Origin: a virus
DNA length: 64,000 bases
Virus record (IMG/VR): IMGVR_UViG_3300021959_007301
Span: 1 to 64,000 of that record
Strand: one strand, 5' to 3'
Part shown: positions 17,196 to 40,648 of the stretch, one piece after another
How the letters are laid out: every line of letters starts with the position of its first letter
Numbering within the stretch: the first letter of the stretch is position 1
The notes under the pieces: generated by a model
What the model saw: the letters and a program-made list of their open reading frames with translations, nothing else
Database searches by the model: none
Told to the model about the DNA's origin: nothing
Made by a program: the position numbers and the translations under genes

Positions 17196-20100
17196 ATGCC
17201 AGAAAAAACTGATTTAAATATATCACCATACTACGATGACTACTCTGAAGATAAAAACTTTCATAAGGTTCTCTTCAGAGCAGGAAGACCTCTACAAGCA
17301 AGAGAGTTAACTCAGTCACAATCAATTCTTCAGAACCAAGTTGAAAGACTTGGTGGACATTTCTTTAAAGAAGGTTCTATTGTTGCAGGTGTTCAGTCAG
17401 GTATTGACTTAGAACTTTACTATGCAAAAGTAGATACTGAGAATCCAAATACTAATGGTGATGACGTTGTCGAAACATATAGAGAATCATTCCATGGTAA
17501 ACTAATTCGTGGTAAAACTTCAGGTGTTGTTGCAAAGGTTATAGATTCTTCTGCAAAAACATCCGATGACGAATTAACTATCTTCTTTAAGTATCTAACT
17601 TCAGGTACAAACAACGAATACACATTCACTGCAGGTGAGGAACTACAGGAAGTAACTGTAGATTCAGGTGGTGCATACTCTGCTGTATCTGCAAACAACA
17701 ACGAATTTAAAGTCCTTCCATCAACAAACAACTCAATCGGAGTTGGTTCAAGAGCAGAGATTGATGAAGGTGTTATCTTTACAAGAGGTTTCTTTGTAAA
17801 GGTTCCAAAACAACATTTACTATTAGAAAAGTATAGTTCAAGACCATCATATAGAATTGGTCTAAAAATAGAAGAGAAACTCATTTCTAATTCAGAAGAC
17901 TCATCATTACAAGATAATGCACAAGGGTCTTCAAACGAGAACGCTGCAGGTGCAGATAGATTCCAAGTTAATCTAACACTTGCAAAGTTCACTATTGACA
18001 CTCAAACTGATGCAAACTTTATTGAATTGATTAGAGTTAATCAAGGTATCATTGAGTTACAGATTTCCAATCCTATCTACAACACCATTGAAAAGACACT
18101 TGCACGTAGAACATACGATGCAAATGGTGACTTTGTAGTTAGACAATTTACACAATCATTAAGAGAACACTTAGACGACACAACCAACAGAGGTTTCTAT
18201 CCTGTAGGTTCAGGTGGTAAAGAAGATAAGTTTGTAATGCAAGTATCGCCTGGTAAGGCATATGTTAGAGGTTTTGAAATTGACAAAACTGGTACTACAA
18301 CAATTCCTTTCTCAAAGGCACGTTCAACTAAGTCGTTATCAAATGCAAAATCACCTATTCGTTTAGGTAATAAATTAAGAGTTTCAAATGCACACGGATT
18401 ACCTGAAGTAATTCAAGGTGTTAACAGTACAGGTATCACTCCTTACAAATTCTGTAAGTTATGGCCTAGTGTTGTTGCAGTAGACGGAACAGAAAACTCT
18501 GAAGATTTTATCGGTTATGCAAGAGTACGAGATATTGAATTGCATGACGGTTCAGACACAAGTGGTGTCTATGCAAGTAATTCAGAATATGATTTGTCAA
18601 TGTTTGACATTAAGATGTTCTCCAAATTACCGTATACATCTCATACAGGTACTGCACAAGCAGGTGATAAGATAACAGGTAGTGCAACAGGTGCTACTGG
18701 TATTGTTGCGTATGATAATAATTCAGATGCACTTTATGTTCATGATGTAGTAGGAAACTTCTCATCAAATGACTCACTTTCTTCTGAGGGTGCAGGTAAC
18801 TTTGCATGTAGTATTGATGGTACACCAAGAAACTATAACATTGACCGTACAAGGTCTATTACACAGGCACCAACAAATGGTTCAAGGGAAACCTTTACTG
18901 CAGATATCAATACAGATGCAGTTAAAATTCTAACAGGTACACTAGTATTCACTGCATCAAGCACTGCAGTTAGTGGTGTAGGTACTTTATTTGCATCAGA
19001 ACTTAAAGAGGGTGACATTATTGTTAACCCACTTGGTGGCCAAGAACTTATTGTTGCATCAATTACAAACGATATCAGTTTAACACTTACAAGTCCTTCA
19101 ACTAATGCATATCAAGGTAATGTTGAAAGAAGACGTGTAAAACTTATTGACCAAGACCAAACAGTAAACATCTTCTCATGGCCTAGAGACTGGGTTAAAG
19201 ACCACACTGCAGATTTAGTAAAAGTTAAAAGACAAACAGTACAAACCATTGGTGCATCAGGTAATATTACTATTGCACAAACAGAGGGTACATTTGAAGA
19301 CCAAAACACTGATAACTTCTCAATTGCAGTTATCGATGTCAGTTCTGCAGCTTCTCCAACATTCTCTGCAGGTGATACACTAAACATAGAAGATTATGAA
19401 GACACTTCACCTACACAAAATGGTGATGGTCAGAGTATTACACTTACAGGTTTTGGTGCTGCAAACGAAGATGTCGTTTTAAGAGTTACATACTCAGTAT
19501 TAATTGCAGACCCAAATCCAAGAACAAAAGATTTAAACAAAGGACGTGCATTACGAGTCTCAGGTGATAGAAACGGTTCATACACAGGAGTGTATGGTTC
19601 ATCATTTAGAGATAAAGAGATTTCTCTTGGTATTGCAGACGTATTTAAAATTAGAGGAATCTATGAAGGTGTTGGAGGAACTCCAGTTACACCTAATGCA
19701 TCACTTTCAAGTGAAGTAGGTACATTCCAACTTCATGAAGTCCTTGTTGGACAAACATCAAATGCACGTGCTGTATTGATTGACTATAACTCAGGTGGAA
19801 CATCGTACTGGTATATGATATCAGGTAGATTCCAAGAGAATGAGTTTGTTGTTGGTCAAGATTCACTTGCACAAGCAACACTTACAGACGTATCACAAGG
19901 TTCACCAAATATCACATCAAGATATTTCTTTGATGATGGTCAGAGAGATGGTTACTATGATATATGTAAATTAGTCAGAAAACCAGCAGAACCTGCACCT
20001 AATAATCAGATTCTTATTGTTTTTGACCAATTCTCACATGGTGATGGTGACTTCTTTGATGTCACATCATATAGTGTACCATATAAAGACATTCCTGTCT

Positions 20101-23100
20101 ACTCTGCAAACAAAGTAGACTTGGGTGGTTTAGAACCTGACGGTACTTATGAATTATCAGATGCCTTAGACTTCAGACCAGTTGTTGGTCAGTTGTATGA
20201 TATAGATTTATCTGCAAACCCTGATTTATCTTCAGTATCTGATATCAGTACTGCAATTGAATATGCACCATTCTCATATGAGAAAGGTAGAAGTTATAAA
20301 TCTTCAAGAGACAAAGAGACAACTAACACAGGTTATAACTATGATACTAATCCTAGTTTGCCTGGCACTCCTGTAACAGGTTCAAGTGTCCAAGGTGACA
20401 TTGAATTCTATGTTGGAAGAGTTGATAAACTCTTCCTACACAAGTCAGGTAAGTTCCAAGTCTCTTCAGGTGAACCTGCATTATCTCCAACCAAACCAAA
20501 GAGTGTTGATGGTGCTATCGAATTGTTTGAATTAACAATTCCTCCGTTTACCAAAAACTTAAAGAACATTAGAGTTAGGTCACAAGACCATAGAAGATTT
20601 ACCATGAAAGATATTGGTAAAATCAATCAGAGAGTGACTAACTTAGAAAGAGTAACATCTCTTTCATTACTTGAGAAAGACACTCAAACAAAACAAATTT
20701 TAGATGGAGATGGATTTGATAGATTCAAATCAGGTTTCCTAGTAGACAACTTTAGAGGTCACAGAGTCGGTGATGTAAACCATCCTGATTACAAGAACTC
20801 CGTTGATTCACAACTTGGTGTATTAAGACCACAATCATATTCACAATTCTTTGATATTGGATTTAAGAGTGCAACATCTCAGAACTATAAGAAGACTGGT
20901 GACTTATTGACACTTCCTTATTCTGAGGTTACATTTGTAAATCAAGACAAGGCATCACGTGCAATCAATGTTAACCCATATCACGTCTTTGCATTTATTG
21001 GTGATGTTAAACTCACACCTGAAACAGACGTGTGGAACGATTCAGAAAGATTACCTGAAGTTAGAGTAAACAGAGAAGGTAATTTCGATGCAGTTCTTGC
21101 TGAGAATACAAACTCATTAGGTACAGTTTGGAATGCATGGCAGACCACATGGGTTGGTCAACCTCAAACTATTTCAACAGAAGTTACTGCATCATCTAAC
21201 GGTTCATGGAGTGGAGACCCAACTCAAGGTGGAGAATGGGTTCCAGGCTTACAAGTATCAAGAGAGATTACAGAAACACCTGAGATTCAAACAAGAACAG
21301 GTGTTACTACATCAGTTGTTGAAGACTTTGTAGAATCAAGAAACGACAGACTCGTATCAGTTTCAATCATACCTTTCATTCGTGCAAAGACTATTGAGAT
21401 TGATGCAACAAATTTAAAACCTGACACATGGCATTACGTCTATTTTGATGACGTACCAGTGGGGTCATATGTAAGACCATTCAGTAGTGCATATGCACAA
21501 GATGGTTCTTCTACAACACTTGGAAAAGGTGTTAAGACAGATGGTAACGGTAGACTTCGTGCATACTTTGAATTACCTAATTCAAATACACAAAGATTCC
21601 CTACAGGTCAGAGAGAATTAAAACTTACCTCATCTAAGTATAATGAGAGAAGTCCTTCATCTGCAGGAACAGGTATCTATCAAGCACAAGGTTTATTACA
21701 ATCCAACCAAACTGAGATTGTATCTACTAGAAATGGTAGAGTGGTAACAGAAAGACTTTCAGGAGAAAGAAACTTCTCAACTAGAGGTGAGGTTGTCAAT
21801 GCAACAAATATTGACACTACTGCACCTGCAATACCACAACCACCTAGTGAACCTAATGAACCACCTGAACCGCCTATTATTATTGACCCACCTGTGTTAC
21901 CACCTGAACCACCTGTGGTACCACCAGTCATTATATCAGACCCACCACCTCCACCGCCACCTGGCCCGCCGTTTGAGTTTGACTTTGATTTCCCAATCTT
22001 TGATATTGGTAATGATTTATTTTTTGAATGGTCAGACCCACTTGCACAATCATTCTTGGTTGATGCAAAAGGTGGAGTAATGTTATCATCCATAGACTTG
22101 TTCTTTAAGACAAGAGATGCAAACTTACCAGTGTCAGTACAAGTAAGAACAATGGTGAATGGTTATCCAGGCCCTAACGTGGTTCCATTCTCAACAGTAA
22201 CTAAGAATCCAAGTGAAATTAACCTTTCACAAGATGGTTCAACTGCAACCACTTTTACTTTCGAATCACCAGTATTTTTAGAGACAAACCAAGAGTATGT
22301 GTTTGTGGTATATTCAAACTCTAACGAATACGAAGTGTTCCATTCAAGAATGGGTGAAACAGACCTTGCAACTGGACAAACAATTTCAGGACAACCTTAT
22401 GCAGGTTCATTATTCATGTCACAGAACAACTCGACTTGGACTGCTGCACAAGAAGATGACCTCAAGTTCCACTTGAGAGCATGTAAGTTTGACACTTCAG
22501 TGTCAGGATATCTTGAATTTGAAAACTTAGATTTACCGAATGCAAAACTGCAGAACAACCCAATAGAAACTGTTTCAGGTCAGACATATGTTAAAGTATA
22601 TAACTATACTCACGGTATGTACAATACATCATCAAATGTAACCATTTCAGGTGTGACTGGTGATAGAACTGGTTCAGTATTAGAGGTACAAAATGCAGTA
22701 GATAGTGGTACACTACCTTCAGATGGAACCTATGACATTGTTCATGGTGGAACCGTTGGTTCAGATGCAGTAACGATTACAACTAATGGTAGTGGTGATG
22801 TAACTGAAAACGGTATTGCATTTGAAATTAAAGTGGAAACACTTTCAGGAACTGCAGACATTACAAGAACAAGAATACTACAAGCAGGTAGTGGACATGT
22901 TGCAGGTGATATTATCACTTGTACTATTGGTTCAACCTTTAGTTTTACCGTAACTATCGATACAGTTGGTGATTCACTTGGTGGTATTCCAATTGATGCA
23001 ATCAATCAAACATTCACTTCGATTGGTTCAACATTTACAATGGATACATTTAGAGTAACTCCTGATATCTCAGGATATGACTTTGTGTCAGATTACTCTG

Positions 23101-23894
23101 CAAGTGATTCGACAGTTGGTGGTGGTGATGAGGTATACTCAACACGTAACTATTACTACGATACACTGCATACTGTTATTCCAAATGTAACACCTGAAGA
23201 TTGTTTCATTAGTGTACATAAAGTTGGTACTCCTATGAATTCACCTGAAGGTTATATCAACGGTACAGTATATAATAGAAGAACTGCTGGAGAGATTATC
23301 GCATTGAACGATAACGTGTTCTTCTCATATCCAAGTGTCGTTGCATCAAGAATCAATGAACAGAATGAGATGTCTTCGAACAGGTCATTTAGATGTGCTT
23401 TACAATTAGTGTCAGGTAATTCAAACCTTTCACCAGTTGTAGACTTAAGTTCATTGGGTGCAATTGCAATTGCAAACAGATTAAACGGATTAAATTCAAG
23501 TGATGCAGAAACCATTTCAATCTCAACCGATTCAGAAGGTGAAGATAATGCAATGTGTTACATCACTAAGAAAGTTAACTTGAAAGCACCTGCATCAGGA
23601 TTAAGGGTGACTGCAGATATCTTTAGACCTGCAACGACAGACGTTAAGGTCATGTATAAGATTATCAAAAACGATGAAGAATCTGCAATCGATGATATCG
23701 GTTTTGAATTCTTCAACAGTGATGGTTCACCTGATACAGTAATTGATGCAGATGCAAGAAACTTTAAAGAGTATGAATTCAGTGTAGATGACCTACCTGA
23801 ATTTAGTGGGTTCATCATTAAGATTGTAGGAAGAGGATACAATACATCAACAGTACCATTGGTATCTGCATTGAGATGTATTGCAGTTGCATAA
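17196..23894 (+). CDS. VrlC-like (DUF4815-type) large virion structural protein
   Basis: LN.SPYYDDY...KNF..VLFR.GRP.QARELTQ.QSILQNQ, RFKSGFLVDNF, DPLAQSF; proline-rich linker at about 21830-21990. Confidence 0.85.
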   Translation: MPEKTDLNISPYYDDYSEDKNFHKVLFRAGRPLQARELTQSQSILQNQVERLGGHFFKEGSIVAGVQSGIDLELYYAKVDTENPNTNGDDVVETYRESFHGKLIRGKTSGVVAKVIDSSAKTSDDELTIFFKYLTSGTNNEYTFTAGEELQEVTVDSGGAYSAVSANNNEFKVLPSTNNSIGVGSRAEIDEGVIFTRGFFVKVPKQHLLLEKYSSRPSYRIGLKIEEKLISNSEDSSLQDNAQGSSNENAAGADRFQVNLTLAKFTIDTQTDANFIELIRVNQGIIELQISNPIYNTIEKTLARRTYDANGDFVVRQFTQSLREHLDDTTNRGFYPVGSGGKEDKFVMQVSPGKAYVRGFEIDKTGTTTIPFSKARSTKSLSNAKSPIRLGNKLRVSNAHGLPEVIQGVNSTGITPYKFCKLWPSVVAVDGTENSEDFIGYARVRDIELHDGSDTSGVYASNSEYDLSMFDIKMFSKLPYTSHTGTAQAGDKITGSATGATGIVAYDNNSDALYVHDVVGNFSSNDSLSSEGAGNFACSIDGTPRNYNIDRTRSITQAPTNGSRETFTADINTDAVKILTGTLVFTASSTAVSGVGTLFASELKEGDIIVNPLGGQELIVASITNDISLTLTSPSTNAYQGNVERRRVKLIDQDQTVNIFSWPRDWVKDHTADLVKVKRQTVQTIGASGNITIAQTEGTFEDQNTDNFSIAVIDVSSAASPTFSAGDTLNIEDYEDTSPTQNGDGQSITLTGFGAANEDVVLRVTYSVLIADPNPRTKDLNKGRALRVSGDRNGSYTGVYGSSFRDKEISLGIADVFKIRGIYEGVGGTPVTPNASLSSEVGTFQLHEVLVGQTSNARAVLIDYNSGGTSYWYMISGRFQENEFVVGQDSLAQATLTDVSQGSPNITSRYFFDDGQRDGYYDICKLVRKPAEPAPNNQILIVFDQFSHGDGDFFDVTSYSVPYKDIPVYSANKVDLGGLEPDGTYELSDALDFRPVVGQLYDIDLSANPDLSSVSDISTAIEYAPFSYEKGRSYKSSRDKETTNTGYNYDTNPSLPGTPVTGSSVQGDIEFYVGRVDKLFLHKSGKFQVSSGEPALSPTKPKSVDGAIELFELTIPPFTKNLKNIRVRSQDHRRFTMKDIGKINQRVTNLERVTSLSLLEKDTQTKQILDGDGFDRFKSGFLVDNFRGHRVGDVNHPDYKNSVDSQLGVLRPQSYSQFFDIGFKSATSQNYKKTGDLLTLPYSEVTFVNQDKASRAINVNPYHVFAFIGDVKLTPETDVWNDSERLPEVRVNREGNFDAVLAENTNSLGTVWNAWQTTWVGQPQTISTEVTASSNGSWSGDPTQGGEWVPGLQVSREITETPEIQTRTGVTTSVVEDFVESRNDRLVSVSIIPFIRAKTIEIDATNLKPDTWHYVYFDDVPVGSYVRPFSSAYAQDGSSTTLGKGVKTDGNGRLRAYFELPNSNTQRFPTGQRELKLTSSKYNERSPSSAGTGIYQAQGLLQSNQTEIVSTRNGRVVTERLSGERNFSTRGEVVNATNIDTTAPAIPQPPSEPNEPPEPPIIIDPPVLPPEPPVVPPVIISDPPPPPPPGPPFEFDFDFPIFDIGNDLFFEWSDPLAQSFLVDAKGGVMLSSIDLFFKTRDANLPVSVQVRTMVNGYPGPNVVPFSTVTKNPSEINLSQDGSTATTFTFESPVFLETNQEYVFVVYSNSNEYEVFHSRMGETDLATGQTISGQPYAGSLFMSQNNSTWTAAQEDDLKFHLRACKFDTSVSGYLEFENLDLPNAKLQNNPIETVSGQTYVKVYNYTHGMYNTSSNVTISGVTGDRTGSVLEVQNAVDSGTLPSDGTYDIVHGGTVGSDAVTITTNGSGDVTENGIAFEIKVETLSGTADITRTRILQAGSGHVAGDIITCTIGSTFSFTVTIDTVGDSLGGIPIDAINQTFTSIGSTFTMDTFRVTPDISGYDFVSDYSASDSTVGGGDEVYSTRNYYYDTLHTVIPNVTPEDCFISVHKVGTPMNSPEGYINGTVYNRRTAGEIIALNDNVFFSYPSVVASRINEQNEMSSNRSFRCALQLVSGNSNLSPVVDLSSLGAIAIANRLNGLNSSDAETISISTDSEGEDNAMCYITKKVNLKAPASGLRVTADIFRPATTDVKVMYKIIKNDEESAIDDIGFEFFNSDGSPDTVIDADARNFKEYEFSVDDLPEFSGFIIKIVGRGYNTSTVPLVSALRCIAVA

Positions 23895-24106
23895 TGTCTG
23901 ATTATATTAAAGTAGAAGGTGCAACACATTTATATAGAGACGATAGTTCTCAAGCAATCGTGTCTACTGATATTGAACAGTGGAGACTTGCAAAGAAAAG
24001 AAAAGAGATTTTTAGGAATCAGGTAAACGAGATAAATACATTAAAAGAAGAGATGGGTGAAATTAAGTCTCTCTTAACTGAACTCATGGGGAAATTAAGT
24101 GGCTAG
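23894..24106 (+). CDS. Small coiled-coil hypothetical protein
   Basis: ATG overlaps the upstream stop; YIKVEG...LYRD..S.AIV followed by a heptad pattern. Confidence 0.7.
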   Translation: MSDYIKVEGATHLYRDDSSQAIVSTDIEQWRLAKKRKEIFRNQVNEINTLKEEMGEIKSLLTELMGKLSG

Positions 24107-25214
24107 AACAGTAGACAATCACAGTACATTAGAAGATTTTAGACGTAATTATAATGACCTCGCTAATGACGTTGGTGACAGGTCAGGTCTTAGAACTGAA
24201 AAACAAAGTACTATCGTAGATGCAATTAATAGTATCGAAGATAAGTCGTTCTTCTTTCAGGAGTTTATCTATACTGCTGGAACACATGGTTCTACACTTT
24301 CAAGATACGAAGGTGTTGATGCATTCAGCAATACATTATCTTTTAAACCTAACAGAATTCAAGTCTTTAAAAACACTCAACACTTAATTGAAGGTGATGA
24401 TTATTCTATTGGGCCTGTGTCAGATGGTCTTGCAGATAGAATTGATTTAGTTGTTGCTGCAACTAATGGTGATAAGATTACTGTTTATGCATTCACTGGT
24501 TCATACTTAGGTGTTGTCGGTGATGGTGCAACCTCAACATACTTTACAGAAACTGCATTAAACACTATTTACAATAATAATGATAACGGTATTATTTTAA
24601 ATGGTGATGGTGCTGATAAAACCGTTGCACTAGAGACAGGATATACAATTCAATTTGCAGGAAGAGTGTATGGTGAAGATGACCTTACACTTGCAAGTGG
24701 AACAACATTCACTTTTGACACTGCAACAAACGGAACACTTACTTTAGATGGTGGTGCTATTACAGGTGCAACCTCTATTACATCAACTGCATTTGTTGGT
24801 GATGTCACTGGTCAAGTATCAGACATTACTAATCATAGTGTAAATAGTCTTTCAGACATTAACACCACTGGTGCAACAAACGGTCAGTTATTAATTTATA
24901 ATGTTTCAACAGGTGATTGGGAAGCAGGTGATGCACCTGCAAACTACACAGATGAACAAGCACAAGATGCAGCTGCATCTATGATTACAAGTGCAACTCA
25001 CAGTAACATAACTGTTACTTATGATGATAATGCAGGAACATTATCATTTTCTGCTGCTGCTCAATATGGTGACTCTGATGTAGATGCACACTTAAGTGGT
25101 AGTAACGGTGTTAGTTACAGTTCAGGTAGTATTAGTTTAGATTATGAGACCACATCTACTGCACCTTCAGGTGTAGGTAGTACTGCAACTGGTCATTTAT
25201 GGTTTGTGATATGA
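24099..25214 (+). CDS. Fibre-like structural protein with C-terminal PSG..GHLW motif
   Basis: TLEDFR..YN N-terminus, LSDI......GQLL.Y....W, EQAQDAAA, ends APSGVGSTATGHLWFVI. Confidence 0.7.
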   Translation: MARTVDNHSTLEDFRRNYNDLANDVGDRSGLRTEKQSTIVDAINSIEDKSFFFQEFIYTAGTHGSTLSRYEGVDAFSNTLSFKPNRIQVFKNTQHLIEGDDYSIGPVSDGLADRIDLVVAATNGDKITVYAFTGSYLGVVGDGATSTYFTETALNTIYNNNDNGIILNGDGADKTVALETGYTIQFAGRVYGEDDLTLASGTTFTFDTATNGTLTLDGGAITGATSITSTAFVGDVTGQVSDITNHSVNSLSDINTTGATNGQLLIYNVSTGDWEAGDAPANYTDEQAQDAAASMITSATHSNITVTYDDNAGTLSFSAAAQYGDSDVDAHLSGSNGVSYSSGSISLDYETTSTAPSGVGSTATGHLWFVI

Positions 25215-25215
25215 T

Positions 25216-26430
25216 ATGGCTGATGAAATCTATATAAACACAGGGTCGAGTTTTCAACAACCGTACCAAGGTCAATCTGTAAGAAATGCTCAATCGCTAG
25301 AAGTCAGACAGACTCCTGCACAGACTCCTGCAAACGCAAGACAACCTAGTACGTATCAAAACAGACAACCGTTTACCTACAGAAGTCCTGTAAATGCACA
25401 GACACCATTTATAAGAAACGCTCAGCAACCCTTTACATACCAAAACCAAGGTAGAACACCTTTTACCTATAACTATCGTTCTCCGTTCACGTATGCACGT
25501 CAGGGACAGACTCCTTTCACGTATGCAAGACAGGGTAGAACACCATATGTTGCAAATGCACAACAACCGTATCCTTATATCGCAAATAGTCAGACTCCAT
25601 ACATTGCTAATGCTCAACAACCCTATCCGTACATAGCAAACAAACAGAGTCCATACATTGCAAATGGTCAGAGTCCATACATTGCAAATGCTCAGTCACC
25701 TTATATTGCAAACGCTCAACAACCGTATCCGTACATTGCATCGTATCAAAGTCCGTTTACCTATAATCATAGACAACCGTTTACCTATGCAAGACAGGGT
25801 AGGTCACCATTTACGTATAGTAATCAACAACCTTACCCATATATTGCACAGACACCTTATACGTTTAATGCAACTGGAACACAAAGCATCAGTCCTCTAG
25901 ACCAATCTTGGGGCCCATCAGGTGCAAGTCCATGGGTTCCTCGTCAAAGTGTTAACTCTTCAGGATTCCCTGAAGCATTCGCAACAATGGGGTTTAGTTT
26001 AGACACTACAAATAACCAAGTCGATGTTAGCTGGAAAGCTGGTACTTCAGCACAAATGGCAACAGTGTATACCGACTCAATTAATTATCAGTCTCCAGTA
26101 ACAGATTCTTCAACATTTGAATGTAAATATACAGTATCTCAGCAATCGTGTTCAGGTAATTGTATGAGTGGTGCATTTGGGCCCACACCAGTTACCGATG
26201 GGTATAATTCAGGAACATATTATTCACTCACAACATTTGGTTGGATGGCAAAGGTTAATCCAAACTATGGTTCGTCCTTTTCAAGGGTTGAAACTGGTAT
26301 TGGTGGCACATATGGTGTAACATTTACAGTCCGTGCAACTCCTTCAGGAAGTAGTGACAGTTATATTACAACTTATACTTCAGGTGGAATAGAACTGATT
26401 GCATCTACAGGACAGTTTAACGAGAACTAA
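25216..26430 (+). CDS. Pro/Tyr/Gln/Arg repeat protein, pair 1 chain C, with non-repetitive C-terminal domain
   Basis: 6/8/10 aa units such as QQPYPYIANS and RSPFTYARQG at about 25321-25848, then about 190 aa of beta-rich sequence. Confidence 0.85.
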   Translation: MADEIYINTGSSFQQPYQGQSVRNAQSLEVRQTPAQTPANARQPSTYQNRQPFTYRSPVNAQTPFIRNAQQPFTYQNQGRTPFTYNYRSPFTYARQGQTPFTYARQGRTPYVANAQQPYPYIANSQTPYIANAQQPYPYIANKQSPYIANGQSPYIANAQSPYIANAQQPYPYIASYQSPFTYNHRQPFTYARQGRSPFTYSNQQPYPYIAQTPYTFNATGTQSISPLDQSWGPSGASPWVPRQSVNSSGFPEAFATMGFSLDTTNNQVDVSWKAGTSAQMATVYTDSINYQSPVTDSSTFECKYTVSQQSCSGNCMSGAFGPTPVTDGYNSGTYYSLTTFGWMAKVNPNYGSSFSRVETGIGGTYGVTFTVRATPSGSSDSYITTYTSGGIELIASTGQFNEN

Positions 26431-26432
26431 AA

Positions 26433-27248
26433 ATGGCAGAGTTGCAAACCACACAACAACCGTATCCTTATATTGCACAAGGTCAAACACCTTATGCATT
26501 GCAGGGTAGAACGCCTTATATTGCTAATGCACAGCAACCGTATCCTTATATTGCGAATGCACAAAGTCCATATATTGCTAATGCAAGACAACCTGTAACC
26601 TATGCAAGACAGGGTCAAACACCGTTTACGTATCAGAGTAGACAACCATTTACTTATCAGAACAGACAACCGTTTACATATCAAAATAGACAACCTGTTA
26701 CCTATGCACGTCAAGGTCAAACACCATTTACCTATAGTAACAGACAACCTGCAACGTATGCTAGACAAGGTAGAACACCTTTCACGTATAACAATCAACA
26801 ACCTTATCCGTACATTGCAAATGCTCAACAACCCTATCCGTACATTGCAAATGCACAGGAACCAAATATTAGGTCTGCACAACAGGCATATCCTTACATT
26901 GCAAATGCAAGGAATCCGTTTACCTATCAACATAGGTCACCTTCTACATATAGAAACCCTGTAAATGCACAGAGTCCGTATATTGCAAATAGTCAAACAC
27001 CATTTACCTATCAAGTTGCATATCAGATTCCTTATACTATAAGGTCACCATTTACCTATCAAGTATCCTACCCAACTACAAGAACCGTTGGGCCAGTTGC
27101 AAAGGTTAAAGGTGTTTTTGTGAATGATAGTGGAACACTTAGAAAACTTGATGAAGTATATGTAAACGATGGTGGAACATTAGAAAAAATTCACCAGTCC
27201 GTTCCTACTGCAAGATTCTCTAAGAATCCAAGTAACACGAGTGTATAA
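26433..27248 (+). CDS. Pro/Tyr/Gln/Arg repeat protein, pair 1 chain D
   Basis: Same unit vocabulary at about 26454-27011; C-terminal VFVNDSG/VYVNDGG hairpin-type repeat. Confidence 0.85.
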   Translation: MAELQTTQQPYPYIAQGQTPYALQGRTPYIANAQQPYPYIANAQSPYIANARQPVTYARQGQTPFTYQSRQPFTYQNRQPFTYQNRQPVTYARQGQTPFTYSNRQPATYARQGRTPFTYNNQQPYPYIANAQQPYPYIANAQEPNIRSAQQAYPYIANARNPFTYQHRSPSTYRNPVNAQSPYIANSQTPFTYQVAYQIPYTIRSPFTYQVSYPTTRTVGPVAKVKGVFVNDSGTLRKLDEVYVNDGGTLEKIHQSVPTARFSKNPSNTSV

Positions 27249-27256
27249 ATAGTATT

Positions 27257-27589
27257 ATGGCGATAATTGCAAACATATACATAGACCAAGGTACTGATTT
27301 TTCCATTACTGTAGACGTTACAGATTCTGCAGGGGAAGTTTTAGAATTAAGTGGTTACACTGCAACTGCACAAGTGAGAAGAACTTATACCTCATCTACA
27401 GTTGCTGCAACCTTTGATACGTCTATTGCAGAATTAGCAGGACAGGTGACTATCTCGTTAACCGATACTGTAACTGCAGGACTGGAAGGTGGAAGATACG
27501 TGTATGACCTAAATATTGAAAGCAGTGCTGGTCAGAAAACTCGTGTTATAGAAGGACAAGCAATTGTCACACCAGGCGTAACGAGGTAA
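27257..27589 (+). CDS. Conserved small virion structural protein
   Basis: NIYIDQGTDFS, L.GYT..AQVR, GRYVYD, RVIEG...VTPGVT; late promoter at 27244. Confidence 0.75.
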   Translation: MAIIANIYIDQGTDFSITVDVTDSAGEVLELSGYTATAQVRRTYTSSTVAATFDTSIAELAGQVTISLTDTVTAGLEGGRYVYDLNIESSAGQKTRVIEGQAIVTPGVTR

Positions 27590-27593
27590 TAAA

Positions 27594-27812
27594 ATGGCAG
27601 GAAATATTAAAGCAAGAGTATTAACAAACAATACAATTCGTGCAAAACAGGTTGCAGTTGGTAACTCATCAACTAATGTAAACTTGTCTGCAAAATCTAT
27701 TAACGAACTTGCAGATGTTAACGTAATTGAAACAGATGAAGGTGTATTGAAGTATAACGCTACTACAGACAAGTGGGAAACCTCTAATGTTTTAGATGGT
27801 GGAACTTTTTAG
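27594..27812 (+). CDS. Small fibre connector protein ending LDGGTF
   Basis: INELADV......GVL.YN....KW and a terminal DGGTF. Confidence 0.65.
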   Translation: MAGNIKARVLTNNTIRAKQVAVGNSSTNVNLSAKSINELADVNVIETDEGVLKYNATTDKWETSNVLDGGTF

Positions 27813-27828
27813 ATAATTTAAAAAATTT

Positions 27829-28710
27829 ATGTTATGTTCACGTGACGAGTGGTCTCCACTACGTGAGATTGTTGTAGGGACACTCAAAGGATTTCAAAAA
27901 CAAGACAATTATTCAGAGTATCATACTACTGAATTCATATACGATATATTTGTTGAGGCAGAAGAAGGACTTAACAAATTTGTTAATATTCTAGAATCCA
28001 ATAATGTAAAGGTTTACAGACCTAATGGAATGTGTTATAATGTTAGGGATTGTGCTGTCGTCATAGATGATGTTATAGTTGAAGGGTCTATGCGATATGA
28101 AAAAGAGTACGGAAATCTATCTACACTTAAAAAAATATTTTTTGAAAAATGGTCTGAAGGATACACATGGATATCAGGCCCCAAACCTTCTTGGAATTCA
28201 GAATTTGATATTATTTTTGATGGTGCAAATATCTGTAGACTGGGAGATAATCTACTCATTGCAACAAACGAAACTGCAAATCGATATGGAAGATTGTGGT
28301 TAGAAAAACAATTTCCTAATAAAAATATTGATTACATTTCTCTAAGAGATAACATATCACACATAGACACAACTATTGTTCCCATATCAGAGGGTACAGT
28401 TATGATTAATGCTAACAGAGTCAACAAAGACAATGTACCAGTATTTTTTAAAGATTGGGACATTATTTGGATACATGATGAGGATATCGTAGAGGAGAGA
28501 CCTGTCATTAAAGACGAGATAGCAGGAAAAATGATTGGTATGAATACTCTTTCTCTTAATCATAATACACTGTTTGTGAATGAAAGTCAAGTAAAATTAA
28601 TGGATAAATTGGGTAAGAAAGGATTTAATTGTATACCTGTACCTCTAAGATACACACGTGAGTTATCAGGTGGACTACATTGTTGCACTTTAGACCTCGT
28701 TAGAGGTTAA
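27829..28710 (+). CDS. Amidinotransferase family enzyme (glycine / inosamine-phosphate amidinotransferase-like)
   Basis: EWSPLREIVVG, RD, FDGAN..RLG, HIDTT, terminal GGLHCCTLDL.R with catalytic Cys. Confidence 0.85.
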   Translation: MLCSRDEWSPLREIVVGTLKGFQKQDNYSEYHTTEFIYDIFVEAEEGLNKFVNILESNNVKVYRPNGMCYNVRDCAVVIDDVIVEGSMRYEKEYGNLSTLKKIFFEKWSEGYTWISGPKPSWNSEFDIIFDGANICRLGDNLLIATNETANRYGRLWLEKQFPNKNIDYISLRDNISHIDTTIVPISEGTVMINANRVNKDNVPVFFKDWDIIWIHDEDIVEERPVIKDEIAGKMIGMNTLSLNHNTLFVNESQVKLMDKLGKKGFNCIPVPLRYTRELSGGLHCCTLDLVRG

Positions 28711-34343: not shown

Positions 34344-35315
34344 ATGGCGTCAGGTAATCAAAGCGTAAAAACACCTACAGGGTGGAGTGCTACAAGAGGT
34401 GCATGGGTAAAAACTGCACAAGGTACTTGGAGTGCTGTAAAACAAATTTACATCAAAACTCCTACTGGTTGGAATGACGCTTCAGGTCAAGAGTTAACTC
34501 AACAACCTTATCCGTACATTGCAAATGGTCAGTATCCATATATTGCTAATGCACAACAACCTTATCCGTACATTGCAAATGGACAAACACCATATATTGC
34601 AGATGCACAACAACCTTATCCTTATATAGCAAATGCACAATCACCATATATTGCTGATGCACAACAACCTTATCCTTACATTGCAAATGCACAGTCACCT
34701 TATATTGCAAATGGTCAGACACCATTTACGTATCAACATAGACAACCATTTACATATGCTAGACAAGGTCAGACACCATTTACGTATCAACATAGACAAC
34801 CTGTAACATATGCTAGACAAGGACAAACTCCTTTCACATATCAAAACAGACAACCGTTTACCTATCAACATAGGTCACCGTTTACCTATCAACATAGGTC
34901 ACCGTTTACATACAACCATAGGTCTCCATTTACATACAGAAACCCTGTGTCTGCACAAGAACCTAATATTAGAAATGGTCAAACACCGTTCACTTATAGT
35001 GCAAGGTATCCTGCAAATGCTCGATATCCAGCAAACGGTCAAACACCGTTCACTTATAGTGCAAGGTATCCTGCAAATGCAAGACAACCAGTAGCATTTA
35101 GGTCACCGTTTACATATCGTGTACCTTATATTGCTAATGCAAGACAACCAAACAGTGCAAGGAACCCATTTACCTATCGTGTGCCTTATATTGCAAACGC
35201 AAGACAACCAAGTACAGCACAACAACCGTATACGTATAACTTCAGACAGAATGTTGTATACTTCTACGGTGGTGGTGGCGGCGGTGGCGGTTTCTTCCCA
35301 CAACAATTGAAATAA
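34344..35315 (+). CDS. Pro/Tyr/Gln/Arg repeat protein, pair 2 chain A
   Basis: N-terminal VKTPTGW repeats; 30+ units starting at 34500; C-terminal YFY-G8-FF. Confidence 0.85.
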   Translation: MASGNQSVKTPTGWSATRGAWVKTAQGTWSAVKQIYIKTPTGWNDASGQELTQQPYPYIANGQYPYIANAQQPYPYIANGQTPYIADAQQPYPYIANAQSPYIADAQQPYPYIANAQSPYIANGQTPFTYQHRQPFTYARQGQTPFTYQHRQPVTYARQGQTPFTYQNRQPFTYQHRSPFTYQHRSPFTYNHRSPFTYRNPVSAQEPNIRNGQTPFTYSARYPANARYPANGQTPFTYSARYPANARQPVAFRSPFTYRVPYIANARQPNSARNPFTYRVPYIANARQPSTAQQPYTYNFRQNVVYFYGGGGGGGGFFPQQLK

Positions 35316-35333: not shown

Positions 35334-36161
35334 ATGGCAACAGGTTTTTATAGGACGATAACAACAGGAAATGCGAGAAGCACGATAAACGTGCAGACTC
35401 CGTTTACCTATAATGCTAGGTATCCTGCATCAGCACAACAACCGTTTACGTTCCAAAACCCATTTACGTATTCCAATAGATATCCTGCATCAGCACAACA
35501 ACCTGTAACTTATCGGTCACCGTTTACATATCGTGTGCCTTATATTGCTAATGCAAGACAACCGTTTACCTATAGAGTACCATTTACATATAGGGTTCCT
35601 TATATTGCTAATGCAAGACAACCGTTTACATACAACTATAGGTCACCATTTACCTATAGAAACCCTGTGTCTGCACAAGAACCAAATATAAGGTCTGCAC
35701 AAGAACCAAATATAAGGTCAGCACAAGAACCTAACATTAGAAATGCACAAAGTCCATATATTGCATCAGCACAACAACCGTACCCATATATTGCAAATGC
35801 ACAATCGCCTTATATTGCTAATGCACAACAACCGTATCCTTACATTGCAAATGGACAATACCCATATATTGCTAGTGCAAGACAACCGTTTACATATCAA
35901 CATAGACAACCAGTGACATATGCAAGACAGGGTCAAACACCTTTCACCTATCAGCATAGACAACCAGTGACATATGCAAGACAGGGTCAAACACCTTTCA
36001 CCTATCAAAATAGACAACCATTTACTTATGCACGTCAAGGTCAAACACCATTTACCTATCAACATAGACAACCGTTTACCTATGCAAGACAGGGTAGAAC
36101 TCCAGTTGCAAGATGGGATGGTGAATTATCACAACAGTGGCCTGCAACACCTATTTCCTAG
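35334..36161 (+). CDS. Pro/Tyr/Gln/Arg repeat protein, pair 2 chain B
   Basis: Own RBS (GAGGA); 30 units at 35394-36095. Confidence 0.85.
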   Translation: MATGFYRTITTGNARSTINVQTPFTYNARYPASAQQPFTFQNPFTYSNRYPASAQQPVTYRSPFTYRVPYIANARQPFTYRVPFTYRVPYIANARQPFTYNYRSPFTYRNPVSAQEPNIRSAQEPNIRSAQEPNIRNAQSPYIASAQQPYPYIANAQSPYIANAQQPYPYIANGQYPYIASARQPFTYQHRQPVTYARQGQTPFTYQHRQPVTYARQGQTPFTYQNRQPFTYARQGQTPFTYQHRQPFTYARQGRTPVARWDGELSQQWPATPIS

Positions 36162-38363: not shown

Positions 38364-39086
38364 ATGTCTGATTTTGATATTGTGTACTTGGATGAACCAT
38401 TCAAGGTCACAGAACTACCACTTAAAAAAATCTATGTAATTGATGACTATCTATGTACAGAATTACATCATCATATAGATAAAATTTTAACCAATAGTTC
38501 TATATGGTCTAAGACCAATCAAGTAAGCAGTAGAAATCCCACAGGATTACCACATCATAGTTTTTGGGGTGCAAGTTTTCTTAGAGAGGATGAAAGATTA
38601 GAACAAGGTCAAGATGAATATCACTCCTATATACCTTTATGGTTTAACCGAAGAATCCAAACTGACTTTCAATTTAAGTGGATTAGATTTCAATACATGG
38701 GATTGAATAGTCAGACACAAGGATTACATGGAACCACTCACTCTGATTGTGCTGACCATGATGAATGGAATCTATCTTTTTTATATTACTATAATAGATT
38801 TTGGAACAAGGAGTGGGGTGGAAATTTAAGATTTTATGATGAACCACAGTTTGGACTTCAAGGTAGAGACGAACACATTAAAAACCATCAGATAGGTGAA
38901 GTTGAATTCAAACCTAATAGGTTATTAATGTTTGATGGTAGAATACCACATGGTGCAGATGCACCAACACCTAAAGCAAAATATGTAGACAGAAGGTCAA
39001 TTGTTCTTAGAGGTGACGAGGTTCAATTAATAGATAGTGAGGAAATGTTTAGTGCCAACGATAGAGTTCACAACATACGATACTGA
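38364..39086 (+). CDS. 2OG-Fe(II) oxygenase (prolyl-hydroxylase-like)
   Basis: HSD (HxD), W..EWGG.L.FY, FKPNRL.MFDG.IPH, distal R.S. Confidence 0.82.
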   Translation: MSDFDIVYLDEPFKVTELPLKKIYVIDDYLCTELHHHIDKILTNSSIWSKTNQVSSRNPTGLPHHSFWGASFLREDERLEQGQDEYHSYIPLWFNRRIQTDFQFKWIRFQYMGLNSQTQGLHGTTHSDCADHDEWNLSFLYYYNRFWNKEWGGNLRFYDEPQFGLQGRDEHIKNHQIGEVEFKPNRLLMFDGRIPHGADAPTPKAKYVDRRSIVLRGDEVQLIDSEEMFSANDRVHNIRY

Positions 39087-39954
39087 AACAACAAAAAACT
39101 TTAGACCTGTTTTAGCAAGAAAATACCAACCACATTGGTGGAAACGTGCTAAAGTTGGAATGGACGTTAGAAATAAGAAGACGACTACTATTCGTGCATG
39201 TCCTGCTATGGATGATTGGTTAAAGAGTGGGTGGTATTTAATTGCAAATAGAGATTTGCATGTTAAGTTTGGAAGAACTCCTGAAACTAATGATGACCAT
39301 TCTAGAGGTCATGTTGTAGATAATGGTGATTATGCATCACCTTCGCACCCCTCAGAACAAATGGCAGGTGCATTTCAATACTTAGATAATGAAGGCCCGA
39401 TTAAAGATGCCTTTAAAATGAGAAATCCATGGAACGTAGTTACACCTCCAGGCTATTCTTGTTTTTACTTAGACCCCTTTCTTTTTCAAAATAGATACTT
39501 TGCAACTTGGCAAGGAATTATAGATACCGATAAATTCAATAAGAATATGGACAATGCACAGATAATCTTTTATCCAAAGGTGAATCATTCATTTACTATA
39601 AAAGAAGGAACTCCTTTGTGTCAAGTGATTCCATATAAAAGAGAAGAGTGGAATGCAAGTTATATTCAATACGACCACAAATCATTCACAGAAAATAGGT
39701 CATCCGTTACATCACATCATTCACAAGAAGATGGAACAGGTGCAACAATGGATGAGTGGGTTAGAAAACCAGGCCTATCTGAATCAGATAGAGCAGAAAA
39801 TTTAACTAGTGGTGGATATAGAAAAGGTGAATATTGGACACCTAAAGGCAAGTTTTATAAAGAAGAATCTCCACCACCTGAGTGTCCATTTCATGTAAGC
39901 GAAAACGATGATAGTGGAGAACATCAACTGGAGTTAGATTTAGATGGCAGTTAG
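39037..39954 (+). CDS. Conserved phage protein often clustered with 2OG oxygenases (DUF6065-like; start may be GTG 39052)
   Basis: CPAM.D, FKM.NPW...TPPGYS, G.IDTD, I.EGTPL.Q.IP.KR. Confidence 0.6.
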   Translation: MRKCLVPTIEFTTYDTETTKNFRPVLARKYQPHWWKRAKVGMDVRNKKTTTIRACPAMDDWLKSGWYLIANRDLHVKFGRTPETNDDHSRGHVVDNGDYASPSHPSEQMAGAFQYLDNEGPIKDAFKMRNPWNVVTPPGYSCFYLDPFLFQNRYFATWQGIIDTDKFNKNMDNAQIIFYPKVNHSFTIKEGTPLCQVIPYKREEWNASYIQYDHKSFTENRSSVTSHHSQEDGTGATMDEWVRKPGLSESDRAENLTSGGYRKGEYWTPKGKFYKEESPPPECPFHVSENDDSGEHQLELDLDGS

Positions 39955-40648
39955 ATTACTATTTCCTAATTTTGTATTTGAAAGAAACTTATTAGACCCA
40001 AACTTGGATAAAAGAAGAGGAATAACTAATGAGTATCTTCAACAGTGTGTAGATGCAATAGATGGTATGAGAAGAAAAGACCCTGAAGGTAGAAGAGTAT
40101 CTAATGCATATACTGGTTGGCAATCAAACGATGGGTGTGAATCAAATCCAATTTTACAACAGTTAATGAGAAAAATAGAACAACTTTTTAAAGATGAAGT
40201 ATTTCCTTTTCATGGATTAGACCAAACAAAAACATCGATACATATTGGTAACTCTTGGGCTAACGTAAACGATTTCTCTGCATGGAATAAACCACATATG
40301 CATAATGGATGTTGGTATAGTGGTGTGTTTTATATAAAGGGAGACGGTGATGAAGGTTGCATAGATATGGTCGATAAAGATGTTAAGGTTGTGTCTGATT
40401 TTCCACATTCACCTCGGGCGCCAGGTTCTATGAGTTATGCACCCACATCAGGTATGTTAATTTTATTTCCTAGTGGATTGATGCATATGGTAGAACCCAA
40501 CATGACAGATAAAGACCGATACAGCATTTCATTCAATATGGTAGTTAAATACCATGGTGATGGAGGTCAATTTGGTGAACCACAAAACTACCATCCTGAT
40601 GAATTTCTTTTTGAAATAGACGAAAACGGTGACCCTATAATGGGTTGA
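39944..40648 (+). CDS. Putative 2OG-Fe(II) oxygenase (TIGR02466-like)
   Basis: SWANVN....N.PH.H, SGVFY, G.LILFPS.L.H.V.PN, RYSISFN. Confidence 0.82.
   Translation: MAVRLLFPNFVFERNLLDPNLDKRRGITNEYLQQCVDAIDGMRRKDPEGRRVSNAYTGWQSNDGCESNPILQQLMRKIEQLFKDEVFPFHGLDQTKTSIHIGNSWANVNDFSAWNKPHMHNGCWYSGVFYIKGDGDEGCIDMVDKDVKVVSDFPHSPRAPGSMSYAPTSGMLILFPSGLMHMVEPNMTDKDRYSISFNMVVKYHGDGGQFGEPQNYHPDEFLFEIDENGDPIMG

What the first reader, a model, noticed from the sequence alone, without database searches (positions are those of the whole stretch)
25216..27248. A second, independent mirror-complement pair using the same alphabet in a different order
Seen in sequence: chain C units (25321-25848) have lengths 6,8,6,6,8,10,8,10,10,8,10,8,10,8,8,8,10,8,10,8,8. 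Chain D units (26484-27011) give the same list reversed: 21/21 units, 176 aa each. Twenty pairs follow the same class rule as pair 2, for example QTPANA/QTPFTY, RSPVNA/RSPSTY, RTPFTYNY/QEPNIRSA, QQPYPYIANK/RQPVTYARQG, and three QSPYIAN(A/G) facing three PFTYQ(N/S) units. Only the pair at the C-terminal end of C is degenerate. The order differs from pair 2, so this is an independent instance of the rule and not a copy of it. Inference: C:D and A:B are orthogonal pairs that avoid full-length cross-pairing in the same infected cell.
Basis: partly seen in the sequence, partly recalled or inferred. Interest (0 to 1): 0.9.

Follow-up and report, generated by a model that had tools for sequence, protein, structure and literature searches.

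The report
Mirror-coded two-protein phage fibre pair
Two neighbouring genes of an uncultured marine T4-like phage encode repeat proteins that match unit for unit when one is read backwards, which points to a two-chain antiparallel tail-fibre shaft of a design I could not find described.

Summary
C (25216-26430) and D (26433-27248) carry arrays of 6/8/10-residue Q/R-x-P units. Read in opposite directions, 22 of 22 units have equal length and 21 of 22 are of opposite class. No unit-order shuffle came close (0 of 10,000, best 13).

The rule holds across the family. In 41 distinct neighbouring pairs from related viral contigs, 544 of 639 facing units are canonical opposite-class pairs and only 1 is A:A. 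Facing residues covary so that size is compensated. One orthologue lost 12 residues in both arrays. Relatives carry C and D fused in one chain whose two arms obey the same rule.

Best reading: a fold-back fibre shaft split into two chains, with a variable beta-sandwich tip on C.

The orthogonality claim is only partly supported. Cross pairs with A and B score at chance (7-9 units, runs of 5), with no sign of selection against cross-pairing. Binding was not measured and no usable structure model was obtained.

The scan has reported this kind of pair before, on this genome and on other genomes. My paper searches found no description of it.

The parts
24099..25214 (+). Upstream fibre-like gene (371 aa). 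Its stop codon lies 1 nt before the start of C. It may form the proximal segment of the same fibre.
   Evidence: ORF; junction read. No Pfam family. Homologues occur in 57 of 80 related loci, and in 35 loci they lie upstream of the D-type ORF.
25216..25320 (+). C N-terminus (residues 1-35): a conserved short strand motif followed by degenerate units.
   Evidence: 100% identical in L001-L003. Invariant columns in the alignment of fused forms. AF2 puts a strand at residues 3-9 of the fused relative, at pLDDT about 50.
25321..25878 (+). C repeat array: 22 units, 186 aa (residues 36-221).
   Evidence: unit lengths 6,8,6,6,8,10,8,10,10,8,10,8,10,8,8,8,10,8,10,8,8,10.
25879..26430 (+). C C-terminal domain (residues 222-404): an all-beta domain and the variable distal tip. 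Ends with the stop codon.
   Evidence: AF2 with 11 sequences: pLDDT 76, pTM 0.74, 13 strands. Only 73.6% (L001) and 60.1% (L003) identical, while both protein ends are 99-100% identical. No convincing fold match.
26433..26453 (+). D N-terminus (7 residues). The start codon lies 2 nt after the stop of C.
26454..27011 (+). D repeat array: 22 units, 186 aa (residues 8-193). It is the reversed, class-swapped image of the C array.
   Evidence: 22 of 22 lengths and 21 of 22 classes; shuffles 0 of 10,000.
27012..27248 (+). D C-terminal tail (residues 194-271): degenerate units, then a conserved double beta motif. Ends with the stop codon.
   Evidence: PHROG 13729 match at residues 223-256. 98.7% identical in L001-L003 and conserved in 91 database sequences. 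Strands at pLDDT 50-66 in the fused relative.
27257..27589 (+). LtfC-like / tail-fibre-assembly-like gene (110 aa), a conserved companion of the pair.
   Evidence: PHROG 1084 (E 2e-27) and PHROG 3304 'L-shaped tail fiber protein assembly' (E 5e-23). Pfam PF23926 scores 19.9 bits, below its cut-off of 27. A homologue starts 0-400 nt after the D-type ORF in 52 of 52 loci.
34344..35315 (+). Chain A of the other pair, used for comparison.
35334..36161 (+). Chain B of the other pair, used for comparison.
   Evidence: A:B is 30 of 30 complementary.

Best explanation
C and D are the two halves of one fibre shaft. Their arrays lie side by side in opposite directions and in register. Each unit of C sits against a unit of D that has the same length and the opposite class: T (P-F-T-Y type) against A (P-Y-I-A-N, P-Y-P-Y-I-A-N, P-x-N-A or P-N-I-R type).

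The three-residue heads (Q/R-x-P) face heads, and the 3, 5 or 7-residue bodies face bodies, so a large residue in one chain meets a small one in the other.

This places the N-terminus of C and the C-terminal beta motif of D at one end, presumably the end that docks to the virion or to the upstream fibre protein. The variable beta-sandwich domain of C sits at the other end, presumably the host-binding tip.

The topology is that of a fold-back fibre whose hairpin has been cut at the tip into two genes.

Shown: the mirror complementarity, its conservation and covariation, the fused forms, and the gene context. Inferred: physical binding, beta-type conformation, position on the virion and receptor binding. 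Open: stoichiometry. Three C plus three D, by analogy with the T4 gp37 needle, is a guess (about 0.3).
For: (1) 22 of 22 lengths and 21 of 22 classes match in reverse order. No shuffle reaches this: 0 of 10,000 and 0 of 5,000.

(2) Family-wide rule with different unit orders and lengths.
- 243 relatives in viral contigs, of which 80 loci were kept.
- Coinciding unit boundaries are more numerous antiparallel than parallel in 50 of 53 neighbouring pairs, with 3 ties.
- In 41 distinct pairs, 544 of 639 facing units are canonical T:A or T:N pairs, 26 are T:T and 1 is A:A.
- Pairs with about 70 units each keep 62-63 complementary units on one diagonal.
- Array spans of the two partners correlate (r 0.89, 50 distinct pairs).

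(3) Concerted change. Orthologue L004 is 12 residues shorter than the window in both arrays. Arm lengths between anchors are 218/211, 206/199, 190/179 and 257/249 (slope 1.01; units shown).

(4) Residue covariation across the two chains.
- The best anti-diagonal is i+j = L+4 for L = 6, 8 and 10.
- When T position 8 is N, A or S, A position 4 is Y in 119 of 120 distinct pairs. When T position 8 is Y, A position 4 is N in 10 of 10.
- T position 4 against the last A position: F with A or G, Y mostly with G, and G with S in 7 of 7 and 8 of 8.

(5) Fused forms. 22 proteins carry the C N-terminus and the D C-terminus in one chain. Their two arms obey the rule in 95 of 121 facing units (77 of 82 in the nine proteins with at least 6 facing units), around a central stretch of about 130 aa.

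(6) 93% of inter-proline spacings are even (3,709 against 275). This fits a two-residue (beta) period.

(7) Context.
- The genes are tightly packed, with 1-nt and 2-nt spacers, among fibre genes of a T4-like myophage (portal, sheath, gp23).
- A conserved fibre-assembly-like gene lies downstream.
- The tip domain diverges far faster than the two protein ends.
Against: - No structure and no binding data exist.
- The T/A classes were defined after looking at the data. The length mirror does not depend on them.
- Loci share ancestry and units arise by duplication, so the counts are not independent events.
- 6 of 37 distinct pairs (L054, L059, L070, L072, L075, L080: divergent C:D orthologues with 12-18-residue units) score no better than non-cognates under my matrix. 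Their arm lengths still match (257/249).
- 13 of the 22 fused proteins show few facing units on one diagonal (18 of 39 complementary).
- 26 T:T pairs exist.
- There is no evidence that the proteins are in virions.
- The three nearest cultured phages lack them (with the positive control), so no experimental system is at hand.
Confidence: 0.8

Rival explanations
1. Relic of a split gene. An ancestral single-chain fold-back fibre was cut into two genes, and the mirror pattern is inherited. Today C and D no longer pair in trans; each works alone or only one of them is functional.
For: Fused forms exist, so a fission or fusion event did happen. No binding data exist.
Against: Split pairs keep changing in concert. 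L004 and the window differ by 12 residues in both arrays. Split pairs with very different orders and lengths all keep the rule. Both ORFs are intact and tightly coupled.
Confidence: 0.05
2. The chains do pair, but the product is not a virion receptor-binding fibre. It could be an assembly scaffold or length ruler, or a secreted or cell-surface adhesive filament made during infection.
For: No virion proteomics exist. The same genome is reported by another reader to carry curli-type secretion genes (e1-6114927, not checked by me). The paper PMC7029224 (passages read) reports such genes in pelagimyophages. Array lengths vary widely.
Against: The pair lies inside the structural and host-recognition region, between fibre genes. 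It has a fast-evolving terminal domain typical of receptor-binding tips. A fibre-assembly-like companion gene is conserved.
Confidence: 0.1
3. Chance or a by-product of tandem-repeat dynamics, with no structural meaning.
For: Arrays built from few unit types can give partial matches. Cross pairs and shuffles reach 7-13 units.
Against: 0 of 15,000 shuffles reach the observed value. No DNA-level operation reverses a protein order, and the DNA shows no matching inverted repeats. The rule recurs in dozens of pairs with residue-level covariation.
Confidence: 0.01

Closest known systems
Needle domain of the T4 long-tail-fibre tip protein gp37 (six-stranded antiparallel beta needle with a distal head domain; Bartual et al. 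2010, as summarised in PMC9659904, passage read)
   Same: The chain runs out to a distal receptor-binding head and back, so outgoing and returning segments lie antiparallel. It is a tail-fibre gene of a T4-like phage. The fused relatives of C-D have exactly this out-and-back layout.
   Different: No sequence similarity to any solved chain. No H-x-H motifs (0 in C and D). Here the two arms are separate polypeptides, built of modular units of three lengths and two classes in free order, and arm length ranges from about 130 to 530 residues. Trimer state is unknown.
Stalk of streptococcal antigen I/II adhesins (A-region helix wound with the P-region polyproline helix, V domain at the tip).
   Same: Two different repeat arrays flanking a tip domain fold back on each other to make a long stalk. 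One of the arrays is punctuated by proline.
   Different: That stalk is a single chain with an alpha helix against a polyproline-II helix and much longer repeats. Here both arrays are proline-punctuated 6/8/10-residue units with an even period that suggests beta structure. No sequence match to solved structures.
Heterospecific coiled coils and collagen heterotrimers (pairing specified by repeat-position residues). Recalled.
   Same: Partner choice and register are set by a periodic residue code. Orthogonal pairs can coexist in one cell.
   Different: No heptad and no Gly-X-Y period. Units of 8 and 10 residues are not multiples of 3 or 7. The chains are antiparallel, and the code works at the level of whole units of variable length.

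Membership tests
Mirror-complementary two-gene fibre family of marine T4-like phages (unnamed; defined by this scan) | Two neighbouring same-strand genes, each with an array of Q/R-x-P units of 6, 8 or 10 residues | tested here: met
   Only four such ORFs occur in the 87,242-base contig.
Mirror-complementary two-gene fibre family of marine T4-like phages (unnamed; defined by this scan) | Unit lengths of one array equal those of the other read backwards | tested here: met
   22 of 22.
Mirror-complementary two-gene fibre family of marine T4-like phages (unnamed; defined by this scan) | Facing units are of opposite class (T against A or N) | tested here: met
   21 of 22 in C:D; 544 of 639 across the family.
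C:D-type module within that family | Conserved C N-terminal motif, conserved D C-terminal double beta motif, and an LtfC-like gene directly downstream | tested here: met
   The LtfC-like gene is present downstream in 52 of 52 loci.
T4 gp37 needle-type fibre tip | Sequence similarity to gp37 or another solved fibre | tested here: not met
   phmmer against all PDB chains: D gave 0 hits at E <= 1; C gave 4 unrelated hits at E 0.1-0.9, all outside the array. No Pfam family.
T4 gp37 needle-type fibre tip | H-x-H iron-binding motifs along the needle (feature recalled) | tested here: not met
   0 H-x-H motifs; 1 His in C and 2 in D.
T4 gp37 needle-type fibre tip | Chain runs to a distal head domain and back (fold-back topology) | tested here: inconclusive
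   The sequence pattern of the fused relatives fits it. No structure was obtained.
T4 gp37 needle-type fibre tip | Homotrimer giving six strands | not testable with these tools
   No usable model was obtained.
Collagen-like triple helix | Gly at every third residue | tested here: not met
   Units of 8 and 10 residues. Gly is absent from most units.
LtfC-like / tail fibre assembly protein (gene 27257-27589) | Match to the family profile above threshold | tested here: inconclusive
   Pfam PF23926 scores 19.9 bits, below its cut-off of 27. PHROG 3304 E 5e-23 and PHROG 1084 E 2e-27.

The most novel reading that the evidence does not exclude
Phages have evolved a protein 'duplex'. Two polypeptides zip antiparallel over hundreds of residues. 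Register and partner choice are written in a modular code: unit length 6, 8 or 10, two complementary classes, and large-against-small residues. Several mutually non-pairing duplexes can therefore be built in one cell, and shaft length can be changed by matched insertions in both genes. This would be a new structural principle for fibres and a natural template for programmable protein assemblies.
Probability: 0.6. Interest if true: 0.9.

Novelty: categorically new. Interest (0 to 1): 0.8.

Why it matters
If the two chains pair as the sequences imply, this is a natural protein-protein recognition system that works like base pairing at the level of short modules. That would explain three things:
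- how these phages make fibre shafts of very different lengths (about 130 to 530 residues per arm) without losing register;
- how one genome can hold two such fibres that do not mix;
- how a hypervariable tip can be exchanged on a conserved shaft.

It offers a testable, designable code for long antiparallel hetero-assemblies. It also gives a function to a large set of 'hypothetical proteins' in the host-recognition region of abundant marine myophages.

For this finding in particular, C:D adds an independent second instance in the same genome. Through its fused relatives, it also gives direct gene-fusion evidence that the two arrays belong together.

Tried and rejected
Structure and complex prediction
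- Complex prediction: three copies of C 70-177 plus three copies of D 52-159, ESMFold2 without alignments, ipSAE 0.00 in both runs, controls not run. The verdict was 'no answer', so it is no evidence either way.
- AF2 of a fused relative (L053 ORF, 19-sequence alignment A1): mean pLDDT 32, arrays unstructured. Not usable.
- Fold search of the C tip model: Foldseek best E 0.02 (CfaE). VIA-align wide best Z 5.1 (CfaE/CFA-I pilin, rmsd 4.3 over 127 residues). This is below the tool's stated background of Z 7-8, so no fold is assigned beyond 'beta sandwich'.

Searches for relatives
- The 'phages' collection gave no match for 24000-28000 (blastn), D (tblastn) or the C tip (tblastn). The low-complexity filter may hide the arrays.
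- D is absent from the HTVC008M, Melnitz and Mosig records. The same search finds it in two viral-contig records.
- The search for related loci with the fused protein P0004 found no relative.

Scoring
- My unit-level local alignment and residue matrix miss divergent pairs. 6 of 37 score at or below the non-cognate median.
- The cognate partner ranks first in only 12 of 37 and within the top three in 26 of 37. The better-ranked ones are mostly orthologous partners.
- The antiparallel-against-parallel contrast under the A:B-trained matrix is biased by construction, so I do not use it.

Reads
- Read laying: bins 25854-26438 (the C tip) have little or no cover in the four runs laid. I draw no conclusion from that.

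Explanations rejected
- Antisense or palindromic DNA origin.
- Collagen-like or coiled-coil periodicity.

Papers
- Searches found no description of such pairs.
- I read passages only of PMC7029224 and PMC9659904.
The gene tables of PMC7029224 might list these genes.
Full report
WHAT IS THERE

The window is the structural region of a T4-like marine myophage. Pfam finds the T4-type terminase, tail sheath, portal, scaffold and gp23. The gp23 homologue is 67.5% identical to Methylophilales phage Melnitz and 65.2% to Pelagibacter phage HTVC008M. All genes lie on the + strand and G+C is about 37%.

The finding covers two ORFs: C (25216-26430, 404 aa) and D (26433-27248, 271 aa). They are packed tightly. 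The upstream fibre-like gene stops 1 nt before the start of C, and D starts 2 nt after the stop of C. A second pair, A (34344-35315) and B (35334-36161), lies 7 kb downstream. The 87,242-base contig holds no further array proteins.

THE OBSERVATION

Both proteins consist largely of units that begin Q/R-x-P and are 6, 8 or 10 residues long. I use two classes. Class T has T at position 5 and Y or F at position 6 (the P-F-T-Y type). Class A is everything else, comprising the P-Y-I-A-N, P-Y-P-Y-I-A-N, P-x-N-A and P-N-I-R types.

The pattern runs one unit further, giving 22 of 22 lengths and 21 of 22 classes over 186 residues in each chain. On the other flank, the printed units suggest by eye that degenerate units of 6, 6, 6 and 4 residues in C face units of 4, 6, 6 and 6 in D. 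I did not test this.

Shuffling the unit order of D never approached the observed value. In 10,000 shuffles the mean was 7.3, the sd 1.1 and the maximum 13. A further 5,000 shuffles also gave none. Natural non-cognate arrays score far lower: mean 9.5 and 95th percentile 16 over 1,332 combinations, against 40 for C:D. The high outliers are orthologues.

A residue-level pair matrix trained only on A:B gives C:D a score of 349, against 179 +/- 21 (maximum 257) for 300 unit-order shuffles. The DNA has no corresponding inverted repeat, so the mirror exists only at the protein level.

IS IT A RULE?

A scan of viral contigs with D found 243 relatives, of which the best 80 loci were kept.

- Boundaries. 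In 53 neighbouring same-strand array gene pairs (51 from the loci, 2 from the window), unit boundaries coincide more often antiparallel than parallel in 50 pairs and tie in 3.
- Facing units. 41 of these pairs are distinct, and together they give 639 facing units on the best diagonal:

| facing classes | count |
|---|---|
| A8:T8 | 193 |
| A6:T6 | 147 |
| A10:T10 | 134 |
| N8:T8 | 70 |
| T with an unclassified unit | 52 |
| T:T | 26 |
| A:other or other:other | 16 |
| A:A | 1 |

- Long arrays. Pairs with 68-71 units per chain keep 62-63 complementary units on a single diagonal. A 39/37-unit pair keeps 35.
- Lengths. Array spans of the two partners correlate over 50 distinct pairs (Pearson r 0.89; spans 62-520 and 129-532 residues).

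Exceptions told in full:
- Six of 37 pairs with distinct unit strings (L054, L059, L070, L072, L075, L080) score no better than non-cognates under my matrix. They are divergent C:D orthologues with many 12-18-residue units. Their arm lengths still match, 257 against 249.
- The cognate partner ranks first in 12 of 37 and within the top three in 26 of 37. The competitors are mostly orthologous partners.

CONCERTED EVOLUTION IN THE C:D LINEAGE

I measured the arm lengths between sequence anchors that do not depend on my unit parsing. The values are 218/211 (window, L001, L003), 206/199 (L004), 190/179 (L005) and 257/249 (seven loci). The slope is 1.01 and r is 0.999, but there are only four length classes. 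L004, 72% identical in D, has therefore lost 12 residues in both arrays. The unit lists show one unit fewer and two 10-to-8 changes in mirrored places (by eye).

RESIDUE-LEVEL REGISTER

I computed mutual information between positions of facing T and A units, using distinct unit pairs only and 200 shuffles per cell. It peaks on the anti-diagonal i+j = L+4 for all three lengths, with mean z of 4.8, 12.9 and 3.7. Bodies (position 4 to the end) therefore face bodies, and the Q/R-x-P heads face heads.

The contingency tables show size compensation:
- In 8-residue units, when T position 8 is N, A or S, A position 4 is Y in 119 of 120 pairs.
- When T position 8 is Y, A position 4 is N in 10 of 10 pairs.
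- When T position 8 is H, either residue occurs.
- T position 4 = F goes with A or G at the last A position. T position 4 = Y goes mostly with G. T position 4 = G goes with S in 7 of 7 (L = 8) and 8 of 8 (L = 10) pairs.

The covarying positions are even in both chains. Across 108 distinct array proteins, 3,709 of 3,984 inter-proline spacings are even. Both facts fit an extended two-residue (beta-like) period, with the aromatic and small residues of both chains on one face. That structural reading is an inference. The counts are also not phylogenetically independent.

FUSED FORMS

The homologue search returned 312 proteins, none with an informative name. Among these and the loci, 22 proteins carry the C-type N-terminus and the D-type C-terminus in one chain of about 445-545 residues. 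Their N-terminal and C-terminal arms are mirror-complementary around a central stretch of about 130 residues.

| protein | complementary / facing units |
|---|---|
| L037 | 13 / 13 |
| L053 | 13 / 13 |
| L035 | 12 / 13 |
| L031 | 9 / 10 |
| P0004 | 7 / 7 |
| P0003 | 7 / 8 |
| L051 | 6 / 6 |
| L036 | 5 / 6 |
| P0050 | 5 / 6 |

Over all 22 proteins the total is 95 of 121. The other 13 proteins give only 18 of 39 on one diagonal.

The viral record that holds the fused L053 form also holds a split second pair. A single chain whose two arms obey the same rule can only satisfy it by folding back on itself. This gives the antiparallel arrangement independent support, and it shows that C and D are the two arms of one unit.

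ENDS AND COMPANIONS

In the antiparallel arrangement, the N-terminus of C and the C-terminal double beta motif of D lie at the same end. Both are highly conserved: 100% and 98.7% identical in L001-L003, with invariant columns.

The other end carries residues 222-404 of C. In the same loci these are only 73.6% and 60.1% identical. They fold as an all-beta domain (pLDDT 76, pTM 0.74) with no convincing structural relative.

A homologue of the 110-residue gene 27257-27589 starts within 400 nt after the D-type ORF in 52 of 52 loci. That gene matches PHROG 3304, 'L-shaped tail fiber protein assembly' (E 5e-23), and Pfam LtfC-like below its threshold.

The region matches the 'host recognition cluster' described for pelagimyophages in PMC7029224. 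I read passages only, and they do not mention such repeats.

Contigs from three metatranscriptome libraries (three studies, 90-99% alike) cover parts of these genes. In run X15 one contig bridges the junction between the upstream gene and C (24099-25438), and another bridges the D/LtfC-like junction (26639-27589). The tool warns that DNA may be present in such libraries, so this is only a weak hint of expression.

ORTHOGONALITY

The four cross combinations reach 7-9 complementary units with longest runs of 5. This is inside the shuffle distributions (means 7.1-7.4; 12-71% of shuffles reach the match count and 5-8% reach the run length). Full-length cross-pairing by the rule is therefore impossible, but the cross pairs are no less complementary than random orders.

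A:A and B:B have 10-unit antiparallel self-complementary runs, reached by 0 of 5,000 shuffles. C:C and D:D do not.

In four other contigs that carry both members of two pairs, the second-type pair is far more complementary than any cross pair. Longest runs are 21-24 for the cognate pair against at most 8 for cross pairs. In three of these contigs the divergent C:D-type pair itself is poorly resolved by my unit parse (runs of 4-7).

COMPARISON WITH WHAT IS KNOWN

The nearest analogue is the gp37 needle of T4: a six-stranded antiparallel needle with a distal head (PMC9659904, passage read). It shares the topology and the setting. There is no sequence relation and no H-x-H motif, and gp37 is a single chain.

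The antigen I/II stalk and heterospecific coiled coils are looser analogies, and I cite them from recall.

Searches of the paper library found no description. The terms were: pelagimyophage with tail fiber; gp37 needle terms; cyanophage, fibre and proline repeat terms; and four motif strings. Supplementary files could not be opened.

The scan itself has reported this kind of pair before: on this genome (e1-6114920) and on other genomes (e1-5784398, e1-5879396 and others).

VERDICT

- 'Independent instance' is supported.
- 'Orthogonal by design' is not shown.
- The most likely reading (0.8) is a split fold-back fibre shaft, held in register by a unit and residue code, with a variable tip on C.
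- Stoichiometry, conformation and virion location remain open.

Noticed in passing
relatives of window 34344-35315 (proteins P0009, P0013, P0022 and others): Many A-type orthologues continue after the C-terminal glycine run into a Hint/intein-like domain. The precomputed Pfam hits are PF14890, PF14623, PF01079 and PF05203. 32 of 120 listed homologues have the A-type N-terminus plus a G-G-C junction. The window's A stops shortly after its run of eight glycines and has no such domain. This suggests autocatalytic cleavage or ligation at the fibre end in relatives.
   Followed up: partly
window 38364-39086 and 39944-40648: Two 2OG-Fe(II) oxygenase genes lie just downstream of pair A:B: PF13640 (E 4e-9) and PF13759 (E 2e-19). 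They could modify the proline- and asparagine-rich fibre proteins. This was not tested.
   Followed up: partly
window 27257-27812: The LtfC-like gene and the small ORF 27594-27812 are conserved companions of the C:D-type module. They start within 400 nt after the D-type ORF in 52 and 44 of 52 loci respectively.
   Followed up: partly
window 27829-28710: A 293-aa ORF in the fibre cluster has a sub-threshold match to the arginine deiminase family (PF02274, E 0.007, 15.9 bits against a cut-off of 22.8) and matches PHROG 25854 of unknown function. Homologues occur in only 9 of 80 related loci.
   Followed up: no
window 17196-23894: A 2,232-aa structural protein has a long proline-rich linker near residue 1,500. 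By position it may be the VrlC-like gene that bounds the host-recognition cluster described in PMC7029224. Not tested.
   Followed up: no
window 26427-26933 (- strand) and 25297-25620 (- strand): Long open frames run opposite the arrays (168 and 107 aa). They are most likely a by-product of the repetitive codon usage and not genes.
   Followed up: no
window 24099-27589: Near-identical DNA is held by runs labelled marine, estuary and even soil metagenomes. Several of these may be the source sample. Six metatranscriptome runs hold 24-35% of the sampled words.
   Followed up: partly
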